Below the pieces are notes generated by a model. The model was not told where the DNA came from and did no database searches. It saw nothing but the letters and a program-made list of their open reading frames with translations. 64,000 nucleotides of DNA, from positions 4,320,001 through 4,384,000 of the forward strand of contig CM000153.2 of the NCBI GenBank assembly GCA_000004695.1, read 5' to 3'. This stretch comes from Dictyostelium discoideum. Taxonomy: Eukaryota. Made by a program: the position numbers and the translations under genes. Shown piece after piece: positions 9,334 to 17,462 of this stretch; within the stretch, counting starts at the first letter, position 1, and every line of letters begins with the position of its first letter.

Positions 9334-11840
9334 ATGACAACTACAATACCATTAAAAGAAGCAGTGGTTGTAATTTTAGATATAGGATTAGGTATGACAA
9401 GTAAAGATAGTGATGGAACAACAACAACAACATCATCAATTGAAGATGCATTAAGATCAGTTACATTATTATATCAACAAAAATTAATATATGGTAAAAA
9501 GGATCAATTAGGATTAGTTTTAATTGGAACAAAAGGTACAAAAAACAATTTACAAGATGATGGATATCAACATATTACAGTTGTAAGTGATATTGAAGAA
9601 CCATCAATTGAAACATTGAAATATTTAGAGAATTTAGCACCTGGTGAATCAAAAGGTGATGTCATTGATTCATTAATAGTTGCAATGGATATGTTAATTA
9701 GAAAAACTGAAAATAAAAAATATCAAAAACGTATTTTCCTTGTTACAAATGCAAGAGATCCAATTAATACTGAAGATTTATCAATTGTTAGAGATCAATT
9801 TAAAAAAATAGATGTAAAATTAAATATAATGTAATTATTATTATTATTATACTTTTTTAAATTTATTTTTTAAATGTATAAATTTTTATATTAATAAATT
9901 TTTATTATTATTATTATTATTATTTTTATTTATTTATATATAAAAAATAGAGGTGTTGACTTTTTAGAAGAAATAGAAGAAAATAATATGGATACAAGTA
10001 ATAATAATAAAAATAAAAGTTTAAAAGAAAAGAATGAAATATTTTTAAGAGAATTTGCAGAATCAGTTGATGGAGTATTAGTACCAGTTAAACAGGCATT
10101 AGAAATGATGAGCTTTTTTAGATCACAATCAGTAATGACTCGTACAAGTTTTAGAGGTGCATTAGAAATTACACCAGAATTAAAAATACCTGTATGGGGA
10201 TATTTAAAAATGAAACAACAATTATTACCATCCTTAAAAAAGATTTCATCAATAGCTCAACAACAAATTGAGCAACAACAACAACAACAACAACAACAAA
10301 ATAAAAATAAAAATAATGAAGATAATGAAGATAATGAAGAAGGTAAACCAAATATTACATTAGATGTTAATCAAGAAGTATCATATTATAGTATTACAGA
10401 TCCAGATAATGAAATTTTAAAACCAGATTTATTAAAAGGTTATAAATATGGTAAATCATTAATACCATTTTCAAAGATTGATGAGGATCAATTAAAATAT
10501 TCATCAAGTAAATGTTTGAAAGTTGTTGGATTCACAGATCGTAAATCAATACCAATCTATTATAATATGGGTAATACTGAAGTATTTGTATCACAACCTG
10601 GTGATAAACAATCAGAGGAAGCATTATCATCATTTATACATGCATTGGTTGAGACTGATCAAGTTATGGTGGTAAGATATGTAAAAACAATGAATGGATC
10701 ACCTTATCTTGGTTATATGATCCCACATGTAAAGAGTGATTATGTTTGTCTATATTATAATCATTTACCATTGGCTGATGATATTAGACAATATCAATTC
10801 CCACCAATTTCACCAAAGAATCCGTTAACTAGGAAATCAAATATACCAAATGCAGAACAATTGGAAGCAACTCAACAACTCATTGATTCAATGGATTTAA
10901 TGAAATCGGAATTCGATGAAGATGGTGACCCAATTCAAATGTTAAAACCAAGATTCACATACAATCCTTTACTTCAACATTTCTATCAATGTCTTCATCA
11001 TAGATCTTTACATCCAAATACTCAAATTCCAAAATTGGATCCTATAATAGCAGAGTATATTAACCCAGATCAAATCATTATGAATAAATCAAAACAATCA
11101 ATTAAAAACTTTGCAGATAAATTCCCCCTCACTAAAACCACTGTATTCTCTAAAACACCTGCTATCTCTGGTGGCAATACCAATGGCACAACATCCAATA
11201 CAAACAATACAATGATTGGTGGTGTAAAATATCATTGGAAAGATGGTATGTTAATTGGTGAGGAAATTAATTTAGATTCCTATGTCACCGATGATGGTTC
11301 CGAGGCTAAAAAGAGAAAGGTTAATGATTTCTCAGAGTTTTCATTGGATAAGTTGGTCTCTGGTTATGTTACAGAGGTTGGTACAATTAATCCTGTTCAA
11401 AACTTTAAAGATATGTTAAATAGAAGAGATATGGATCTTGTGGATAAAGCAATCACTTTAATGAAGGAAAGAATACTTCAATTGGTTAATGATTCACTTA
11501 GGGATCAATATTATCAAAAGGCTTTCGAATGTATAAAAGAATTAAGAGTTGGTTGTATTAGAGAATCAGAAGCTGAACAATTCAATGGTTTCCTCAAAGA
11601 TATGAGATCTTTATTTCAATCAAAGAAAAGAGATGACTTTTGGCAATATATCACTGCTGATGTAACTTCAATCCTTGGTGAGAAATCAATTAATTTAATC
11701 ACTCAAGATGAATGCGATTCTTCTGAAGTTACTCAAGAAGAGTTGGATCAATTTTTGGATAAAAAGGTTAAACAATTCAATCCTCCTCCAATTACAAATG
11801 TTAATACAGATTCGGTTGATGACTTATTCGATCAAATTGA

Positions 11841-11844
<4 letters not shown>
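9334..11844 (+). CDS. ku80: Ku80 (XRCC5), a non-homologous end-joining DNA-end-binding protein, ~784 aa. Exons are 9334..9830 and 9951..11844.
   Basis: The N-terminal vWA-like region (AVVVILDIGLGM...LVLIGTKGTKNN...VAMDMLIRK) and the Ku core (GYKYGKSLIPFSKIDEDQLKY...VVGF...ALSSFIHAL...VVRYV...PHVKSDYVCLYYNHLPLADDIRQYQF) are collinear with human Ku80 ([21 protein letters not shown]...ALSSLIHAL...IVRY...[26 protein letters not shown]). The donor GTAATT is at 9831 (phase 2) and the acceptor aaaaatag at 9950. Confidence 0.85.
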
Positions 11845-11884
<40 letters not shown>

Positions 11885-12005
11885 CTTAAAAAAAAAACAC
11901 TAAACAATTGGGTGATAATTATTTTTTATTTTTAACTTTTTTTTTTTTTTTCTTAAAATAGAATTCTATAAATAAATAAATAATTTATTTATTGTTTTAT
12001 TATTG

Positions 12006-12036
<31 letters not shown>

Positions 12037-12233
12037 ATTTATTTTTTTTTTTTGGAAAATTGAACAGGAAAAACAAAATTTAATTATTTATATATTCTAT
12101 GATTCCTTTAATTGATGAGTTTTGCAATTCATCTTGAGTTATTTCCACATTATTAATATAAAAAAAAAAAAAAAAAAAAAAACTTAATTATAGTACTAAA
12201 TTTTTTAAGAAATTGATTTTATTTTTATTTATT

Positions 12234-13250
12234 TTACAATTTTACCATCATTTTACCAGTATTTGTACCTTTGAATAATGCAAGAAAAGATGGCACCAAT
12301 TGATCGAAACCATTATTAATGGTGTGTCTATCTTTGAGTTGACCAGATTTATACCATTGAGCCAATTCTTTTAATGCTTCAGCATGTTTGCTTGCATAGT
12401 TTGCAACGATGAAACCTTGTAATTTTGAGGAAGTTTTCAAGAGATAACCTTCAATACGTGGGCCAACATCCTTTTCAGTAGAGTTGTATTGTGAGATTAC
12501 ACCGCATAGTGGAATACGGGCAAACTTATTCAAGTGTGGCCAAATTGCATCAGATACAACACCACCAACATTCTCCCAATATATATCAACACCATTTGGA
12601 ATTGCTTTTGCTATATCGTCTTTATAAGTTGGTGAATTGTAATTTACACCGACATCAAAACCTAATTCATCGACGATGTATTTTATCTTCTCTTCGGAAC
12701 CTACGATACCTACAACTCTGCAACCTTTGATTTTACCAATTTGACCGACCAATTGACCTACTGCACCGGCTGCAGCGCTGATTACCATGGTTTCACCTTG
12801 TTTTGGTTCTGCGATCTCTTTGAGACCGTGATAAGCTGTTAATCCGACCATACCCAAAACTGAGAGGAATGATTCCAATGGCGCTAATGTTGTATCGATT
12901 TTATTTGCATATGGACTGTTTGAATTGTAGATGAATTCAGATTGCCATGGTAAATGACCCATAATGTAATCACCTACTGAATACTTTGATGCTGAGCCTG
13001 CTTTTGTAACTTTACCAATAGCATATCCAACAATTGGTTTACCAATTTCAAATGGTGGGATATATGATTTACGTGTTGTCATACGACCTCTCATATATGG
13101 GTCTGGTGAAACTATCTCTAATTTTACTACTACTTCTTCATTTTTTAATTCTTCAATTGAAAATTCAAAAGTTTTCTCTTCAAAATCCTCCAAAGTTGGT
13201 GTACCACTTTCGATGTGATTTTTTAATACAATTTGTTTACTAAGAACCAT
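12234..13250 (-). CDS. NADP-dependent oxidoreductase of the MDR superfamily, PTGR1 (leukotriene B4 12-hydroxydehydrogenase / prostaglandin reductase)-like, 338 aa, intronless.
   Basis: The 338-aa ORF carries the Rossmann glycine motif AAAGAVGQLVGQIGK and shows full-length collinearity with PTGR1-type enzymes. It is a paralog of the gene at 15795..16934. Confidence 0.85.
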   Translation of the reverse strand: MVLSKQIVLKNHIESGTPTLEDFEEKTFEFSIEELKNEEVVVKLEIVSPDPYMRGRMTTRKSYIPPFEIGKPIVGYAIGKVTKAGSASKYSVGDYIMGHLPWQSEFIYNSNSPYANKIDTTLAPLESFLSVLGMVGLTAYHGLKEIAEPKQGETMVISAAAGAVGQLVGQIGKIKGCRVVGIVGSEEKIKYIVDELGFDVGVNYNSPTYKDDIAKAIPNGVDIYWENVGGVVSDAIWPHLNKFARIPLCGVISQYNSTEKDVGPRIEGYLLKTSSKLQGFIVANYASKHAEALKELAQWYKSGQLKDRHTINNGFDQLVPSFLALFKGTNTGKMMVKL

Positions 13251-13747
13251 ATTTTTTATTTTTATTTTATTTATTTATTTATTTATTATAAATAATTATT
13301 ATATTACTTTTATAATTAGTTTTTTATTTATTTATTTTATTTTATTTTTTAATCTTTTGTTGAGTGAAAATATAAAAAAAAAATAAAAAAGAAATCTTTT
13401 TTTATACTAAAAAAAAAAAAAAATTAAATTAAAAAAAAAAAAAAAAAATTAAATTAAAAAAAAACTTTTTGGATATTTTTATTTTTTTATTTTTTTTTTT
13501 TTCTAAAGGGTAAAAATTGTTGTCATTTTAAAATGACGATTTCCAAAAATATGAAAAAGTAAAAAAGATAAAGAACTAATCTTTCCCTATTCTTTAAAAT
13601 TTCATCACGGGTTAACATATTTATATATTATTCTTTGTGACAATAATTATTTTGTAGGCATTCTTTAAAAAAATGAAAAATATGGGATATTTTGGCATTG
13701 GAATGATAAAAAAATAAAAAATAAAAATGAAAATAAAAAATAAAAAT

Positions 13748-13779
<32 letters not shown>

Positions 13780-13785
13780 GTTTGA

Positions 13786-14112
13786 AAATCATTAATGCTG
13801 GGAAAAAGTAGGTGTGAATACTTTTTAAATTTCAAAAAAAAAAAAAAAAAAAAAAATAAAAATAAAATTTTTTATTTTTATTTTTTAAAAAGTATTAAAA
13901 AGTAGGAAGTATACTTTTTTTGACTTTTTTAAAATATCAATTGACTACTCTTGCAACTTTTTTGGTTCTTTTAATTTAAGAAACAAAAAAAAAAAATTGA
14001 AAAAATAAAAATAAATAAAAAAATAAAAAAATAAAAAAAAATATAAAAAAAAAAAAAATTTTCAAAATACTTTAAAAGTAAAATTTTCAAAATACTTTTT
14101 CCAGCATTGAAA
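13786..14112. mobile_element. Candidate small non-autonomous element (MITE-like), ~330 bp, bounded by imperfect inverted repeats.
   Basis: The left end is TGAAAATCATTAATGCTGGGAAAAAGTAGGTGTGAATACTTTTT (13786-13830). The right end is AAAATACTTTTTCCAGCATTGAAAATCAT (14083-14112), which is its reverse complement with core GCTGG(G)AAAAAGTA. A second internal copy of the AAAAAGTA(G)GAAGTATACTTTTT motif lies at ~13898. The internal sequence is AT-rich and non-coding. Confidence 0.3.
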
Positions 14113-14491
14113 ATCATATTATCTTAAATTATTAATAATAAATAAAAAAAAAAAAAAAAAAAAAGAAGTAAATTAATAAAATGACAAAAGATTAATTTTT
14201 TTTTTTTTTTTTTTCATTTGTTAAATTATTTTTATTTTTTTGGTATAAGAAAATATAAAAAAAACAATTTTTAATTTAAAAATAAAAATTCAATTGATTA
14301 AAAAAATAATAAAATTATTGAAAAAAGTAAAAGGTAAAGATTTGTTGGTAGTTTTTAAGATATTTTTAAAAAAAAAAAAATAATTTAAAAAATAGAAAAA
14401 AAAAAAAAAAAATCTAAAAAATGACAAAATAAAAGATTTTTTTTTTTTTTTTTTTTTTCCAATAATAACATATACAAACTTTCAAAAAATA

Positions 14492-15187
14492 ATGAAACTA
14501 TTTTTATTAATTATTAATTTAATTTATTTGATTAATTATTCAAATTGTTCAACTATATTATTTGCCAATTTTTTTTCATACGCAACAAGTGATTGTAGTG
14601 GAGAATCAATTGGATTTGGATATTCTTTAAAAATTGATGAATGTTTGGGTGCATTTCAACCATTTCAACAAGTTGATGATAATTTTTGGAAAATTGAATT
14701 TAATAAAGAATCAAATTCAATAATTACAACAAGATATAGTGAATGGAATTTTAATTGTAATGGTTCAAGTGATACTCAACAATTTATTATTGGAAATAAT
14801 GAATGTTCAATAATGCCAAATTTCACAGTGATTGAAACTGGTACAATCTCTGGTATGAGTGATATTTGGTATACTCGTGCTTCTATTAGTATTGGTAAAC
14901 CAGAATATACACCAGGTTCCTTATTATCAGTTAGAGAATATTATAATGATAATTCTAGAGGTAATTGTGATATGAATAATTTTCAAACTGCCGTTACCTA
15001 CTCTCAAAATTTAAAACTTTCCATTCAAGATACAAATGAATCAGAAACTTGGTTTTGTAAAAATAATGAAGCACTCGAAAACTTTTGTGATTTCAATGGT
15101 AAAAATTGTCAAATATTCGATAATACCATATCATGCAATCCTTCAGAACAATCTGGAAACCAAAATTGGTATTGTGTAACACCTTGA
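14492..15187 (+). CDS. Secreted Cys-rich protein, 231 aa, with an N-terminal signal peptide.
   Basis: The reading frame is uninterrupted. It begins with a hydrophobic leader (MKLFLLIINLIYLINYSNC) and has about 14 Cys in CxG/CxxC contexts (DCSGES, NCNGSS, NECS, FCKNNEALENFCDFNGKNCQ). No homolog was recognised. Confidence 0.5.
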   Translation: MKLFLLIINLIYLINYSNCSTILFANFFSYATSDCSGESIGFGYSLKIDECLGAFQPFQQVDDNFWKIEFNKESNSIITTRYSEWNFNCNGSSDTQQFIIGNNECSIMPNFTVIETGTISGMSDIWYTRASISIGKPEYTPGSLLSVREYYNDNSRGNCDMNNFQTAVTYSQNLKLSIQDTNESETWFCKNNEALENFCDFNGKNCQIFDNTISCNPSEQSGNQNWYCVTP

Positions 15188-15616
15188 TTTGCTAACTCAA
15201 ATAGGAAATAAATTAATTAATAATTTTTAAACCACATTATTTTTTTTTTTTTTACTTAAACACACAATTTTTTTTTTTCTAAATAATTTTAATTGATAAT
15301 AAGAATTATAATATATTTGATTTAATTTGATCAATAAATTTTTAAAAAGGGGAATAATTATAATTATTAAAGACTCATAAATATTAAATTAAATTCTCTA
15401 ACTGTATGATTAAAAAAAAATGTAAAATTGTAAATATCAAAGGAAATATGTTAAATAAAAATAAATAAATAAAAAATAAAAATAAAAAATAGATTTTGGT
15501 GAATTTCAAACCCCACACACCCAATCTATTTTTATAATAATTGTAATTATTTTTTTTAATTTCTCAACAAACCACATACAATTGTGTGTAATAAAAAAAA
15601 GTAACGAAAATAGAAA

Positions 15617-15640
15617 AGTGTGAATTCGAACCCCCACCCA
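15617..15640 (-). promoter_or_regulatory. B-box-like (tRNA T-loop-like) motif GGGGGTTCGAATTCAC on the minus strand. A weaker second copy lies at 15493..15517.
   Basis: The reverse complement of 15617-15640 is TGGGTGGGGGTTCGAATTCACACT, which matches the pol III B-box consensus GGTTCGAANCC at 9 of 11 positions. No cloverleaf could be folded around it, so it is not a tRNA gene. Confidence 0.2.
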
Positions 15641-15794
15641 TTTCGTTCAATTTAAATTTTATCTTTTTTATTTATTTAGTTTTACCTGTTTTTATTTTAT
15701 TTTATTTTTTTCATTATTTTTTAATTTTTTTTAAATTTCCTTTTTTTATTTTTATATTTATTATTTTATACAATTAAATAATTACAGAATAATT

Positions 15795-15965
15795 ATGACA
15801 AAAGTTAAATTTATTGCATTAAAAAACTATATCAAAGGTGGATATCCACAAGAAAAGGATTTTGAAACAAAAGAAGTAGATTTAGATGAAACATTGGGTA
15901 ATAATCAAATCCTTGTAAAATTGATTTACATTTCAGTTGATCCATATGTAATTATTAAAAATAAG

Positions 15966-16006
<41 letters not shown>

Positions 16007-16934
16007 ATTTAATTTAATATTAAAATTTATTTTATATTTTAAATTAATTTAATTTAAAAAGGTTCGTGGAAGAATGAGTGAAGGTAAATCATATATTGAT
16101 CCATTTAAGATTGGAGAACCAATTGAATGTGGTGGTGTTGGTAAAATTGAGAAATCAAATTGTAGCAAATGGAAAGTTGGTGATTACATTGCCAATAATC
16201 AATTCCCATGGAAAGAGAAATTTGTTACTGATGGTAATAACCCAGGTTGTTATAAAGCTGATAAGAACGCTGCTCCACTTCCATGTTATCTCTCTCTACT
16301 TGGTATGACTGGTATGACTGCCTATTGTGGTCTAACTGAAATCGGTGAACCAAAGAAAGGTGAAACATTGGTGGTGAGTGCTGGTTCTGGTGCCGTTGGT
16401 CAAATTGTTGGTCAAGTTGGTAAAATCATTGGTTGTAGAGTAATTGGTATTGCTGGATCGAAAGAAAAGTGTGATTTCATGACTAAGGAATTAAGATTCG
16501 ATGTAGGTATCAATTATAAATCTCCAACTTACAAAGATGATATTGCAAAAGCTGTTGAGAAAACTGGTGTCGATATCTATTGGGAGAATGTTGGTGGTGA
16601 AATAACTGATGCAGTTTTGCCACATTTAAACAAATATGCACGTATTCCACTTTGTGGTGTAATCTCTTCCTACAATAAAACCGAATTGGATGTTGGCCCT
16701 CGTATTCAAATTTATCTCTTGAAATCATCTGCAAAAATGCAAGGTTTCATTGTTTTTAACTACATTGATAAATTCCCTGCTGCCTCTAAACAATTGGCTG
16801 AATGGTATAATCAAGGTAAAATCAAAGATCAACATTCAATTAAAAAAGGCCTTGACCAAGTTGTACCATCATTCCTTTCATTATTTAATAGTGATCATCT
16901 TGGTAAAATGATTATTAAAATTGCTGATGAATAA
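15795..16934 (+). CDS. PTGR1-like NADP-dependent oxidoreductase (MDR superfamily), ~341 aa. Exons are 15795..15947 and 16062..16934. It is a paralog of 12234..13250.
   Basis: Exon 1 ends ...SVDPY with a GTAATT donor at 15948. The 114-nt intron contains an uninterrupted (A)42 tract. The acceptor aaaaag is at 16061. The translation DPY|VRGRMSEGKSYIDPFKIGEPI matches the paralog's DPYMRGRMTTRKSYIPPFEIGKPI. The cofactor motif AGSGAVGQIVGQVGK is present. Confidence 0.8.
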
Positions 16935-17462
16935 ATATTAAAATTTATTTTTAAAAAAAAAAAAAAAAAAAAAAAAGTGTGTTAAACCATTAATTTTATA
17001 ATTTTTTTTTTGTAATTAAATAATTTAAAAAGATAATTGTAAATGGGGAAAATTTATAATTCAAATAATTGTAATTATTTTTTTAATTTTTCCTACATCG
17101 TTTGCATTTTTCCCGCTGGGAAATTCCATTAAAAATAAAAAAATTCAAAAAAAAAATATCTAAATAAAGATATTATTTGGTTATTAAAAAATATTGGATA
17201 TTTTTTTTCAAAAAAAAAAATTAAAGTGTTAAAGGTAGTACAAAAAAATAAAGAAATCGATTAAATTGATATTTTTTTTTTTCATTAAAAACGAGTTTGT
17301 TTTTTTTTTTCCCACCCAGAGTGCGAAAGTTGGAAATATTTTTTTTTTTTTTTTTTTTTTTTTATAAGTTTAACTTTTTTTTTTTTTTATTTTCTTTTTA
17401 TTTTTTTCTTTTCATAATTTTTTTATATTTATTTATTTATTTATTTATTTTTTAAAAAAAAA

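What the first reader, a model, noticed from the sequence alone, without database searches (positions are those of the whole stretch)
12234..16934. Inverted pair of diverged PTGR1-like oxidoreductase paralogs, one intronless and one with an (A)42-containing intron, flanking a secreted Cys-rich gene
Copy A (minus strand, 12234..13250) is intronless. Copy B (plus strand, 15795..16934) is interrupted at the conserved ...DPY|(M/V)RGRM position by a 114-nt intron that is almost entirely a 42-nt poly-A run. The proteins are only roughly 55-60% identical, so this is an old duplication. The arrangement (tail-to-tail across ~2.5 kb, with a novel secreted gene and an IR element between them) is unusual. 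Intron presence in only one copy suggests either intron loss or retroposition of copy A.
Basis: partly seen in the sequence, partly recalled or inferred. Interest (0 to 1): 0.5.

Follow-up and report, generated by a model that had tools for sequence, protein, structure and literature searches.

The report
Divergent bacterial-type enone reductase gene pair
Two already-annotated, head-to-head Dictyostelium discoideum genes encode diverged copies of a bacterial-type NADPH enone reductase; one copy carries a single small intron, which looks like ordinary intron turnover, not retroposition.

Summary
The window is D. discoideum AX4. Copy A (12234..13250, minus, 338 aa, no intron) is Q54LY4. Copy B (15795..15947 + 16062..16934, plus, 341 aa) is Q54LY2. 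They are 58% identical and both are under purifying selection (dN/dS about 0.1).

Three details in the finding are wrong. The pair is head-to-head, not tail-to-tail. The longest A run is 39 nt, a third of the 114-nt intron, and five A/T runs that long occur in this window. The "novel" gene between them belongs to the known CfaA_B_C family.

Copy A shows no retrogene marks. D. firmibasis and D. citrinum have the same adjacent pair with the same intron states.

The proteins are closer to bacterial YfmJ/CurA-type reductases (49-56% identity) than to human PTGR1 or plant reductases (32-43%), and they fail the PTGR1 equivalog cut-off. This suggests an old bacterial acquisition, followed by duplication into three paralogues. 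The backbone of my trees is unsupported, so this is not proven.

Across the family I mapped 11 intron positions. Only three are shared between paralogues, and none between D. discoideum and D. purpureum. I favour, weakly, intron gain in B over loss in A.

Overall this is ordinary and already annotated. The horizontal transfer angle is modestly interesting.

The parts
12234..13250 (-). Copy A: intronless CDS including the stop codon, 338 aa. It is a YfmJ/CurA-type NADPH-dependent enone (double-bond) reductase, Q54LY4/XP_637847.
   Evidence: One ORF. Pfam ADH_N_2 + ADH_zinc_N. Exact match to the AX4 protein. Orthologues in D. firmibasis and D. citrinum are also intronless. dN/dS is 0.10-0.14.
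13252..13776 (.). Upstream region next to A (candidate promoter), conserved in D. firmibasis.
   Evidence: blastn: 70.8% identity over 552 nt to L006 9997..9498, directly upstream of the D. firmibasis A orthologue.
13794..14108 (.).
   Evidence: The core occurs once in the window. The exact core is absent from the 13 loci fetched by then, which include the D. citrinum and D. firmibasis spacers. The repeat finder shows only low-complexity repeats here. No Rfam match.
14492..15187 (+). Intervening gene DDB_G0286307: 231 aa, N-terminal signal-like hydrophobic segment, 11 Cys, counting-factor-associated CfaA_B_C family.
   Evidence: Pfam PF11912, E = 5.1e-33. Exact match to Q54LY3. Present in D. 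citrinum and absent from D. firmibasis.
15618..15632 (+). GTGTGAATTCGAACC element about 165 nt upstream of B's ATG. Similar strings lie upstream of B in D. citrinum and D. firmibasis, so it is a candidate cis-element.
   Evidence: Two matches in the window against 0.06 expected. Related strings are visible in the spacers printed.
15795..15947 (+). Copy B exon 1 (51 codons, ends ...VDPY).
   Evidence: Splice model reproduced exactly from the annotated protein.
15948..16061 (+). Copy B intron: 114 nt, GT..AG, phase 0, 97% A+T. It contains the A39 run at 15966..16004.
   Evidence: The same position and phase occur in D. firmibasis (75 nt, A run of about 29) and D. citrinum (92 nt, A8 only).
16062..16934 (+). 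Copy B exon 2 including the stop codon (begins VRGRM...). The whole protein is 341 aa, Q54LY2/XP_637849.
   Evidence: Pfam ADH_N_2 + ADH_zinc_N. dN/dS is 0.09-0.11.

Best explanation
A and B are two functional, divergently transcribed paralogues. They encode a zinc-independent, medium-chain NADPH-dependent alkenal/enone double-bond reductase of the bacterial YfmJ/CurA type.

Origin (inferred). A bacterial gene entered the lineage before the D. discoideum / D. purpureum split. It duplicated into an AB line and a C line (DDB_G0276545). The AB gene then underwent a local inverted duplication, which left A and B head-to-head over a short shared spacer, as still seen in D. firmibasis (799 bp). A CfaA_B_C-family secreted-protein gene later landed in that spacer in the D. 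discoideum / D. citrinum lineage, or was lost from D. firmibasis.

The intron difference is ordinary intron turnover, not retroposition. B most likely acquired its phase-0 intron after the A/B duplication and before the three close species diverged. A simply kept the intronless state at that site.

The A39 tract is an unstable homopolymer typical of this genome, with no evident function.

Shown here: the gene structures, the orientation, the paralogy, the conservation across three species, purifying selection, and the fact that the nearest relatives are bacterial.
Inferred: the transfer itself, the direction of the intron change, and the enzyme chemistry (hydride transfer from NADPH to the beta-carbon of alpha,beta-unsaturated carbonyls, with the conserved Tyr of CG-x-IS-x-YN assisting), which rests on family knowledge.
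For: Structure and identity.

Arrangement. The same Ku80 - A - B layout, head-to-head, occurs in D. firmibasis and D. citrinum. A is intronless and B has one intron at the same codon boundary in all three species.

Selection. dN/dS is 0.09-0.14 for both copies.

Enzyme features. The nucleotide-binding A/G-x-x-G-A-V-G segment and the Tyr in CGxISxYN align with PDB relatives.

Bacterial affinity:
- Apart from Dictyostelium entries, every named hit in the top 120 of three searches is bacterial, at 47-53% identity; the rest are unnamed metagenome or SRA-assembly sequences.
- A Dictyostelium-only profile still ranks Staphylococcaceae, Paraliobacillus YfmJ and Bacteroidales clusters first (415, 405 and 370 bits; the unnamed third-ranked cluster scores 371). 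Of the ten further clusters I could look up, the four eukaryotic ones scored 314, 295, 286 and 285 bits.
- The top unnamed hits lie on dense bacterial-type contigs.
- Identity to human PTGR1 and to the plant double-bond reductases (DBR) is only 32-43%.
- The one amoebozoan homologue found (Planoprotostelium) groups with plant-type DBRs, not with Dictyostelium.
- NCBIfam's best model is bacterial CurA at 333 and 344 bits; PTGR1 scores 222 and 202.

Intron map:
- I mapped 11 intron positions in six gene lineages.
- B's site is unique to B.
- D. discoideum and D. purpureum share none, even between the C orthologues.
- This matches the pattern Ma et al. report for the 16 accepted bacterial-origin genes: 9 introns in D. 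discoideum, 19 in D. purpureum, 14 of them at discordant positions (PMC4683709).

No retrogene marks.

Homopolymer frequency. The A run varies 39 / about 29 / 8 nt among the three species.
Against: Phylogeny:
- My trees are neighbour-joining with a simple distance correction.
- The backbone placing Dictyostelium inside bacterial diversity has negligible bootstrap support.
- Dictyostelium plus YfmJ-type bacteria versus the PDB outgroups gets only 60%.
- All-Dictyostelium monophyly gets 42-70%.

Sampling:
- I could name only four non-dictyostelid eukaryotic homologues.
- I could not check dictyostelids outside group 4.

Introns:
- One position (CPK|G, phase 2) is shared by D. purpureum 54199 (AB clade) and 91936 (C clade). 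If it is homologous, the AB ancestor already had introns, and the D. discoideum genes lost at least that one.
- Genome-wide, precise intron losses (441 in D. discoideum) far outnumber putative gains (40) (PMC4683709).
- D. purpureum 50359 has an intron 7 nt from B's site. This could be the same intron shifted.
- Whether A and B are sisters is unresolved (39-55% bootstrap).
Confidence: 0.55

Rival explanations
1. Copy A is secondarily intronless. The A/B ancestor carried the DPY intron, and probably others as in D. purpureum. A lost them all by gene conversion with a reverse-transcribed mRNA. B lost the 3' ones and kept only the 5'-most.
For: - Ma et al. found 441 precise losses against 40 putative gains in D. 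discoideum, with lost introns lying further from the 5' end (PMC4683709).
- B's only intron is 5'-proximal, at nt 153 of a 1026-nt CDS.
- The D. purpureum paralogues carry four introns each, with three positions shared between paralogues. One of these is shared across the AB/C split, so introns existed early in the family.
- D. purpureum 50359 has an intron 7 nt from B's site.
Against: - B's exact site is empty in all three D. purpureum paralogues and in C.
- With 12 D. purpureum introns on about 1020 nt, one falling within 7 nt of B's site by chance has a probability of roughly 0.17 (my arithmetic).
- Keeping the intron ancestral needs several independent losses.
- If the family is bacterial in origin, every intron is ultimately a gain, and most positions are specific to one lineage.
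Confidence: 0.35
2. Copy A is a processed retrocopy of B or of another paralogue, reinserted next to its parent.
For: A has no intron, while B and all D. purpureum relatives have at least one.
Against: - There is no poly(A) on A's sense strand after the stop. The tract at 12160..12182 reads as T23 in A's sense.
- The best flanking direct repeat is a 19-nt poly-T stretch, equalled or beaten by 24% of random AT-rich pairs.
- B, the copy with the intron, itself has an A24 run 19 nt after its stop, so such tracts tell nothing here.
- A lies immediately head-to-head with B in three species, and its upstream 525 bp are conserved.
- A is expressed-gene-like and under purifying selection.
Confidence: 0.03
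3. There was no horizontal transfer. The family is an old eukaryotic lineage of the leukotriene-B4-dehydrogenase/alkenal-reductase group, inherited vertically in Amoebozoa. It looks bacterial only because bacterial sequences vastly outnumber eukaryotic ones, or because bacteria acquired it from eukaryotes.
For: - Eukaryotic homologues do exist at 285-314 bits among the top 150 representatives (insect, Rigifila, Planoprotostelium, a fungus).
- Deep nodes of my trees are unsupported.
- The databases are heavily bacterial.
Against: - There is a gap of about 100 bits and 10-15 identity points between the best bacterial and the best eukaryotic relatives, even with a Dictyostelium-derived profile.
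- Only group-4 Dictyostelium appears among eukaryotes in three top-120 lists, although the collection includes EukProt, nr and UniRef.
- The amoebozoan Planoprotostelium protein is 48% identical to a plant DBR but only 38-42% to the Dictyostelium proteins. It clusters with the plant type.
Confidence: 0.25

Closest known systems
Bacterial YfmJ / CurA (YncB) NADPH-dependent curcumin/enone reductases (NCBIfam NF058644; MDR superfamily, leukotriene-B4-dehydrogenase family)
   Same: - The same two-domain architecture (ADH_N_2 + Rossmann ADH_zinc_N) and about the same length.
- 47-56% identity to Bacillota and Bacteroidota members.
- It is the best NCBIfam model.
- The nucleotide-binding motif and the active-site Tyr are conserved.
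   Different: - The genes are eukaryotic nuclear genes with Dictyostelium codon usage (GC3 about 0.2) and spliceosomal introns.
- They score below the CurA equivalog cut-off (333 and 344 bits against 440).
- The substrate is unknown.
Mammalian PTGR1 / leukotriene B4 12-hydroxydehydrogenase (TIGR02825; PDB 2Y05, 1V3T)
   Same: The same superfamily and fold family. The alignment is full-length, with E about 1e-57.
   Different: - Only 35-39% identity.
- 222 and 202 bits against a cut-off of 580.
- They are not each other's nearest relatives. 'PTGR1-like' is a superfamily label only.
Plant 2-alkenal reductase / double-bond reductases (AtAER 2J3H, Malus DBR 6YTZ, 7E4D)
   Same: The same family, at 228-245 bits. 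The chemistry is probably similar: detoxifying reactive alpha,beta-unsaturated carbonyls.
   Different: - Only 32-43% identity to the two DBRs I aligned, 6YTZ and 7E4D.
- The amoebozoan Planoprotostelium homologue groups with this plant type. The Dictyostelium genes do not.
Accepted bacterial-origin genes of Dictyostelium that later acquired introns (16 genes discussed by Ma et al. 2015, PMC4683709)
   Same: - The nearest relatives are bacterial.
- The genes are integrated in the chromosomes.
- D. discoideum has fewer introns than D. purpureum.
- Most intron positions are discordant between the two species.
   Different: - I found no paper naming this family as a transfer candidate, although I could not read the original list.
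- Its Pfam domains also occur in eukaryotes, so a screen restricted to bacteria-only domains would presumably not have flagged it (my inference).
- Support here is by similarity and weak trees only.
Processed retrogenes
   Same: Copy A lacks introns.
   Different: There is no sense-strand poly(A), no target-site duplication and no dispersal. The upstream region is conserved.

Membership tests
PTGR1 / LTB4 12-hydroxydehydrogenase (TIGR02825 equivalog) | Domain architecture ADH_N_2 (PF16884) + ADH_zinc_N (PF00107). | tested here: met
   A: E = 5e-24 and 2e-15. B: E = 1e-24 and 6.5e-17.
PTGR1 / LTB4 12-hydroxydehydrogenase (TIGR02825 equivalog) | Whole-protein score at or above the curated equivalog cut-off (579.85 bits). 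| tested here: not met
   A scores 221.9 bits and B 202.5 bits.
PTGR1 / LTB4 12-hydroxydehydrogenase (TIGR02825 equivalog) | Animal PTGR1 proteins are the nearest relatives. | tested here: not met
   35-39% identity to human and guinea-pig PTGR1 against 49-56% to bacterial YfmJ-type proteins. 196 bits to 2Y05 against 386 bits to the best bacterial hit.
PTGR1 / LTB4 12-hydroxydehydrogenase (TIGR02825 equivalog) | Activity on LTB4 or 15-oxo-prostaglandins. | not testable with these tools
   Needs enzymology.
Bacterial CurA/YfmJ NADPH-dependent enone reductase (NF058644) | Best-scoring curated model, and nearest named homologues are of this type. | tested here: met
   NF058644 is the top NCBIfam model for both proteins. 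Named hits are 'YfmJ', 'CurA' or 'NADP-dependent oxidoreductase' from Bacillota and Bacteroidota.
Bacterial CurA/YfmJ NADPH-dependent enone reductase (NF058644) | Score at or above the curated equivalog cut-off (440 bits). | tested here: not met
   333.3 bits (A) and 344 bits (B). They are relatives, not equivalogs.
Bacterial CurA/YfmJ NADPH-dependent enone reductase (NF058644) | Conserved NADPH-binding glycine motif and the active-site Tyr of CGxISxYN. No ADH_N zinc-ligand domain. | tested here: met
   G162, G165, Y255 and N256 are invariant in the Dictyostelium alignment and aligned in the PDB matches. Pfam reports ADH_N_2, not ADH_N.
Processed retrogene (copy A) | Poly(A) tract on the sense strand just 3' of the gene. 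| tested here: not met
   Downstream on the sense strand there is only an A6 run, then T23 at +52.
Processed retrogene (copy A) | Flanking target-site duplications. | tested here: not met
   The longest shared flank string is a 19-nt poly-T stretch. 24% of random AT-rich pairs reach that length.
Processed retrogene (copy A) | Inserted away from the parent gene, without the parent's upstream region. | tested here: not met
   A is adjacent to B, head-to-head, in three species. Its upstream 525 bp are conserved at 71% in D. firmibasis.
Bacterium-to-Dictyostelium horizontally transferred gene | The nearest relatives outside the recipient clade are bacterial, by a clear margin. | tested here: met
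   Top-120 lists. Profile search: 415 and 405 bits for bacterial clusters against at most 314 bits for the eukaryotes I identified. Bacterial gene context of the top unnamed hits.
Bacterium-to-Dictyostelium horizontally transferred gene | A genuine chromosomal gene of the recipient, not contamination. | tested here: met
   Flanked by Ku80 and Zip genes on Mb-scale chromosomes in several species. GC3 is 0.15-0.25. Spliceosomal introns are present.
Bacterium-to-Dictyostelium horizontally transferred gene | Supported phylogenetic nesting inside bacterial diversity. | tested here: inconclusive
   The neighbour-joining trees place Dictyostelium among bacteria, but with 0-17% support on the nesting nodes and 60% for the split from the PDB outgroups.
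Bacterium-to-Dictyostelium horizontally transferred gene | Absent from sister eukaryotic lineages. | tested here: inconclusive
   Only group-4 Dictyostelium species appear among the top hits. The Planoprotostelium homologue is of another (plant-like) type. Other dictyostelid groups could not be queried directly.

The most novel reading that the evidence does not exclude
The three-member reductase family of group-4 Dictyostelium (A, B and DDB_G0276545) descends from one bacterial YfmJ-type gene acquired by horizontal transfer, and has not been reported as such. Under that reading every one of its 11 mapped intron positions is a post-transfer gain. B's intron can then be dated to the interval between the A/B duplication and the D. 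discoideum / D. firmibasis split. That would make the family a small natural experiment on the rate and the sites of spliceosomal intron gain, and on later loss.
Probability: 0.45. Interest if true: 0.45.

Novelty: new member of a known kind. Interest (0 to 1): 0.25.

Why it matters
As written, the finding does not matter much. Both genes and the intron are already annotated in the reference genome. Head-to-head paralogue pairs are common, and long A tracts are a routine feature of Dictyostelium non-coding DNA.

The part worth keeping is that these 'zinc-containing alcohol dehydrogenases' are in fact zinc-independent enone reductases of a bacterial type. If the transfer is confirmed, they add one more bacterial acquisition to the short Dictyostelium list. 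They would also give a family in which intron gains can be counted against a guaranteed intronless ancestor. That bears on the long-running question of intron gain versus loss, though only as one more data point.

Functionally, such enzymes detoxify reactive alpha,beta-unsaturated carbonyls. That would be plausible for a soil amoeba feeding on bacteria, but nothing here tests it.

Tried and rejected
1. **Inversion or misassembly idea.** Locus tags in other assemblies put A and B 17-24 numbers apart. Fetching the DNA showed A and B adjacent in D. firmibasis and D. citrinum, so this was a numbering artefact.
2. **tRNA-like strings at 15500..15640.** ARAGORN finds no tRNA in the window and there is no Rfam match at 11800..17400.
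3. **The 'IR element' as a mobile element.** It has only a 16-17-nt imperfect core. It occurs once in the window and not in the related loci. I dropped it.
4. **Poly(A) and target-site-duplication test for A.** Negative, and uninformative in this genome anyway.
5. **Intron sliding between B's site and the D. purpureum 50359 site 7 nt away.** The sequences allow no simple shift, because there is no GT after TAT in 50359. The proximity is compatible with chance.
6. **Orthology of A and B to particular D. purpureum paralogues.** Neighbour-joining bootstraps are indecisive: A+B 39-55%, the D. purpureum pair 73%, B+50359 26%. There is no shared synteny.
7. **Literature.** No paper holds my guessed gene identifiers for A and B (DDB_G0286305 / DDB_G0286309), or DDB_G0286307 or DDB_G0276545. 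The genome paper's transfer table was not available. A further search on Dictyostelium, horizontal gene transfer, bacterial origin and oxidoreductase found nothing on this family.
8. **Supplement of PMC4683709.** It lists neither my two guessed identifiers for A and B nor DDB_G0276545 among scored intron losses.

Full report
**What is there**

The window is 21.8% G+C. Its three proteins at this locus match D. discoideum AX4 entries exactly:
- Copy A is XP_637847/Q54LY4.
- The middle gene is DDB_G0286307/Q54LY3.
- Copy B is XP_637849/Q54LY2.

Copy A is one uninterrupted ORF at 12234..13250 on the minus strand, 338 aa.

Copy B is 15795..15947 plus 16062..16934 on the plus strand, 341 aa. Its intron is 114 nt, GT..AG and phase 0, and falls exactly between ...VDPY and VRGRM....

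The two proteins are 58% identical, E = 4e-145. tblastn finds no further copy in the window.

**Corrections to the observation**

- *Orientation.* A's ATG is at 13250 on the minus strand and B's is at 15795 on the plus strand. The 5' ends therefore face each other, 2544 bp apart. The pair is head-to-head, not tail-to-tail.
- *A run.* The longest run is 39 nt (15966..16004), about a third of the intron.
- *How unusual it is.* Such tracts are routine here. The window has 121 A/T runs of at least 15 nt, 13 of at least 30 nt and 5 of at least 39 nt.
- *Stability.* The run sits at the same place in the orthologous introns but is about 29 nt in D. firmibasis and only 8 nt in D. citrinum. It behaves as an unstable homopolymer, not a conserved feature.
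- *The 'novel secreted Cys-rich gene'.* It matches Pfam CfaA_B_C (counting-factor-associated proteins) at E = 5e-33.
- *The 'IR element'.* It reduces to a 16-17-nt inverted core with one indel (13794..13810 and 14093..14108). It is unique in the window and absent from the related species.

**Surroundings in relatives**

D. firmibasis and D. citrinum carry the same Zip - Ku80 - A - B arrangement, head-to-head.

An apparent gap of 17-24 locus-tag numbers between A and B in several new assemblies first suggested an inversion. The DNA shows it is only a numbering artefact.

In D. firmibasis, A and B are separated by just 799 bp, with no trace of the cfa-like gene by tblastn. D. citrinum has that gene. 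So the secreted-protein gene entered, or left, what was a short shared divergent spacer. The 525 bp next to A (13252..13776) align to the D. firmibasis spacer at 71%.

Both enzymes are under purifying selection. dN/dS is 0.10 and 0.11 against D. citrinum, and 0.14 and 0.09 against D. firmibasis.

**What the proteins are**

Both have ADH_N_2 plus the Rossmann ADH_zinc_N domain and no zinc-ligand ADH_N domain. The GenBank name 'zinc-containing alcohol dehydrogenase' is therefore a generic label.

PDB relatives are all NADPH-dependent double-bond reductases:
- P. aeruginosa PA1648, 251 bits.
- The bacterial NADP-dependent oxidoreductase 5ZXU, 248 bits. I recall it as a CurA-type enzyme, but that is from memory and was not checked.
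- Plant double-bond reductases (DBR), 228-245 bits.
- Mammalian PTGR1, about 196 bits.

NCBIfam ranks bacterial CurA first, at 333 and 344 bits against a cut-off of 440. The PTGR1/LTB4DH equivalog comes second at 222 and 202 bits, far below its cut-off of 580.

The glycine-rich NADPH motif and the Tyr of CGxISxYN are conserved.

From family knowledge, the likely chemistry is hydride transfer from NADPH to the beta-carbon of alpha,beta-unsaturated aldehydes or ketones. The substrate is untested.

**Bacterial affinity**

- Three searches of the 5.8-billion-protein collection (queries A, B and the D. purpureum paralogue 91936) returned only group-4 Dictyostelium species among the named eukaryotes. 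Every other named entry in each top-120 list is bacterial (Bacillota such as Paenisporosarcina, Neobacillus and Listeria; Bacteroidota such as Pedobacter and Maribacter). The rest are unnamed metagenome or SRA-assembly sequences. Identities are 47-53% and scores 337-386 bits.
- That is nearly as close as A is to B.
- The best unnamed hits lie on dense contigs with typical bacterial genes.
- A profile built only from Dictyostelium sequences still ranked bacterial clusters first: Staphylococcaceae 415 bits, Paraliobacillus YfmJ 405 bits and a Bacteroidales genome 370 bits (the unnamed third-ranked cluster scored 371).
- Of the ten further clusters I could look up, four were eukaryotic: an insect, Rigifila, the amoebozoan Planoprotostelium and a fungus, at 314, 295, 286 and 285 bits.
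- In alignments, Dictyostelium proteins are 49-56% identical to the bacterial group. They are 32-43% identical to human PTGR1, plant DBR, Pseudomonas and 5ZXU.
- They are 33-42% identical to the four eukaryotes.
- The Planoprotostelium protein is closer to plant DBR (48%) and clusters with it.
- Neighbour-joining trees place a Dictyostelium clade among bacteria. Its monophyly gets 42-70% bootstrap, and the nesting nodes have almost no support.

I read this as probable, unproven, ancient bacterial acquisition.

**The family and its introns**

D. discoideum has a third paralogue, C (DDB_G0276545). D. purpureum has three dispersed paralogues: 54199, 50359 and 91936, of which 91936 is the C orthologue. 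The AB + 54199 + 50359 clade and the C clade each get 100% bootstrap.

| Gene | Introns | Positions |
|---|---|---|
| A (D. discoideum, D. firmibasis, D. citrinum) | 0 | none |
| B (same three species) | 1 | DPY\|V, phase 0 |
| C (D. discoideum, D. firmibasis) | 1 | ENVGGE\|V, phase 1 |
| D. purpureum 54199 | 4 | includes three positions shared with other paralogues |
| D. purpureum 50359 | 4 | one lies 7 nt downstream of B's site |
| D. purpureum 91936 | 4 | the annotated model includes a 5-nt microexon |

Only three positions are shared, and all three are within D. purpureum:
- SGAxGS|xVGQ, phase 0 (54199 and 50359).
- WPLL|N, phase 2 (54199 and 50359).
- CPK|G, phase 2 (54199 and 91936).

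No position is shared between D. discoideum and D. purpureum, even for the C orthologues.

Ma et al. describe the same pattern for the 16 accepted bacterial-origin genes: 9 introns in D. discoideum, 19 in D. purpureum, and 14 at discordant positions (PMC4683709).

**Direction of the A/B difference**

*Retroposition of A is rejected.*
- There is no sense-strand poly(A).
- No flanking repeat rises above background.
- A is adjacent to B and has a conserved upstream region.
- B itself has an A24 run right after its stop, which shows that such tracts say nothing here.

*Gain in B or loss in A cannot be settled.*

For gain in B:
- The family's likely intronless origin.
- The uniqueness of B's site.
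- The predominance of lineage-specific positions.

For loss in A:
- The genome-wide excess of precise losses (441 against 40 putative gains).
- The 3' bias of losses, which fits B keeping only a 5'-proximal intron (PMC4683709).
- The CPK|G intron shared across the AB/C split, which implies that early family members already had introns.
- The intron 7 nt away in 50359.

Whether A and B are sisters, or orthologues of different D. purpureum genes, is also unresolved: A+B gets 39-55% bootstrap.

I put gain in B at roughly 0.55, loss in A at 0.35 and retroposition at 0.03 or less.

**Verdict**

This is a real but ordinary and already annotated gene pair. Several descriptive details in the finding are wrong, and the favoured interpretation (loss or retroposition of A) is at best half right.

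The added value is twofold. The enzymes are reclassified as bacterial-type YfmJ/CurA-like enone reductases. The family is also a candidate, apparently unreported, bacterial acquisition with heavy intron turnover. That is another example of a known phenomenon rather than a new kind of thing.

Noticed in passing
window 14492..15187; L009 8714..9421; L006 9202..10000: The CfaA_B_C-family secreted-protein gene lies between A and B in D. discoideum and D. citrinum. It is absent from D. firmibasis, where A and B share a 799-bp spacer. This is a lineage-specific insertion into, or deletion from, a divergent promoter region.
   Followed up: partly
window 15618..15632 (also 15496..15520); spacers of L009 and L006: A GTGTGAATTYSAAAC-like, partly palindromic element lies upstream of B in all three close species. 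The window has two matches against 0.06 expected. It is a possible cis-regulatory site.
   Followed up: partly
window 13516..13539: The block TTTTAAAATGACAACAATTTT (in A's sense) lies about 270 nt upstream of A's ATG, inside the 525-bp region that aligns at 71% with D. firmibasis. In D. discoideum it forms a near-palindrome, TCGTCATTTTAAAATGACAA.
   Followed up: no
It occurs once in the window and not in the related loci.
   Followed up: partly
window 11843..11882 and 16953..16976: Long A tracts follow the stop codons of the Ku80-like gene (A40) and of copy B (A24). Poly(A) tracts after genes are common here, so they cannot mark retrogenes.
   Followed up: yes
paralogue C, elsewhere in the genome (P0244 versus P0242; L013 3001..4124): The AX4 model of DDB_G0276545 is 316 aa, while a newer D. 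discoideum annotation gives 343 aa with one intron at ENVGGE|V. The reference model may be truncated or mis-spliced.
   Followed up: no
L011 10001..11337 (D. purpureum DICPUDRAFT_91936): The annotated protein can only be reproduced with a 5-nt microexon (AATTG) between two introns at CPK|G and I|D. This could be a gene-model artefact or a sequence error.
   Followed up: partly
cluster members P0124 and P0129: The D. dimigraforme A orthologue is annotated as 679 aa, probably a fused model. One 'D. cf. discoideum' B orthologue is annotated as 236 aa, probably truncated.
   Followed up: no
L001-L005 (Logan contigs carrying copy A): Five independent SRA-run assemblies give contigs of about 1.12 kb. 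Their downstream ends fall at the T/A homopolymer beyond A's stop, and their upstream ends fall about 32 nt above the ATG in low-complexity AT-rich sequence. This illustrates how homopolymers fragment Dictyostelium assemblies.
   Followed up: no
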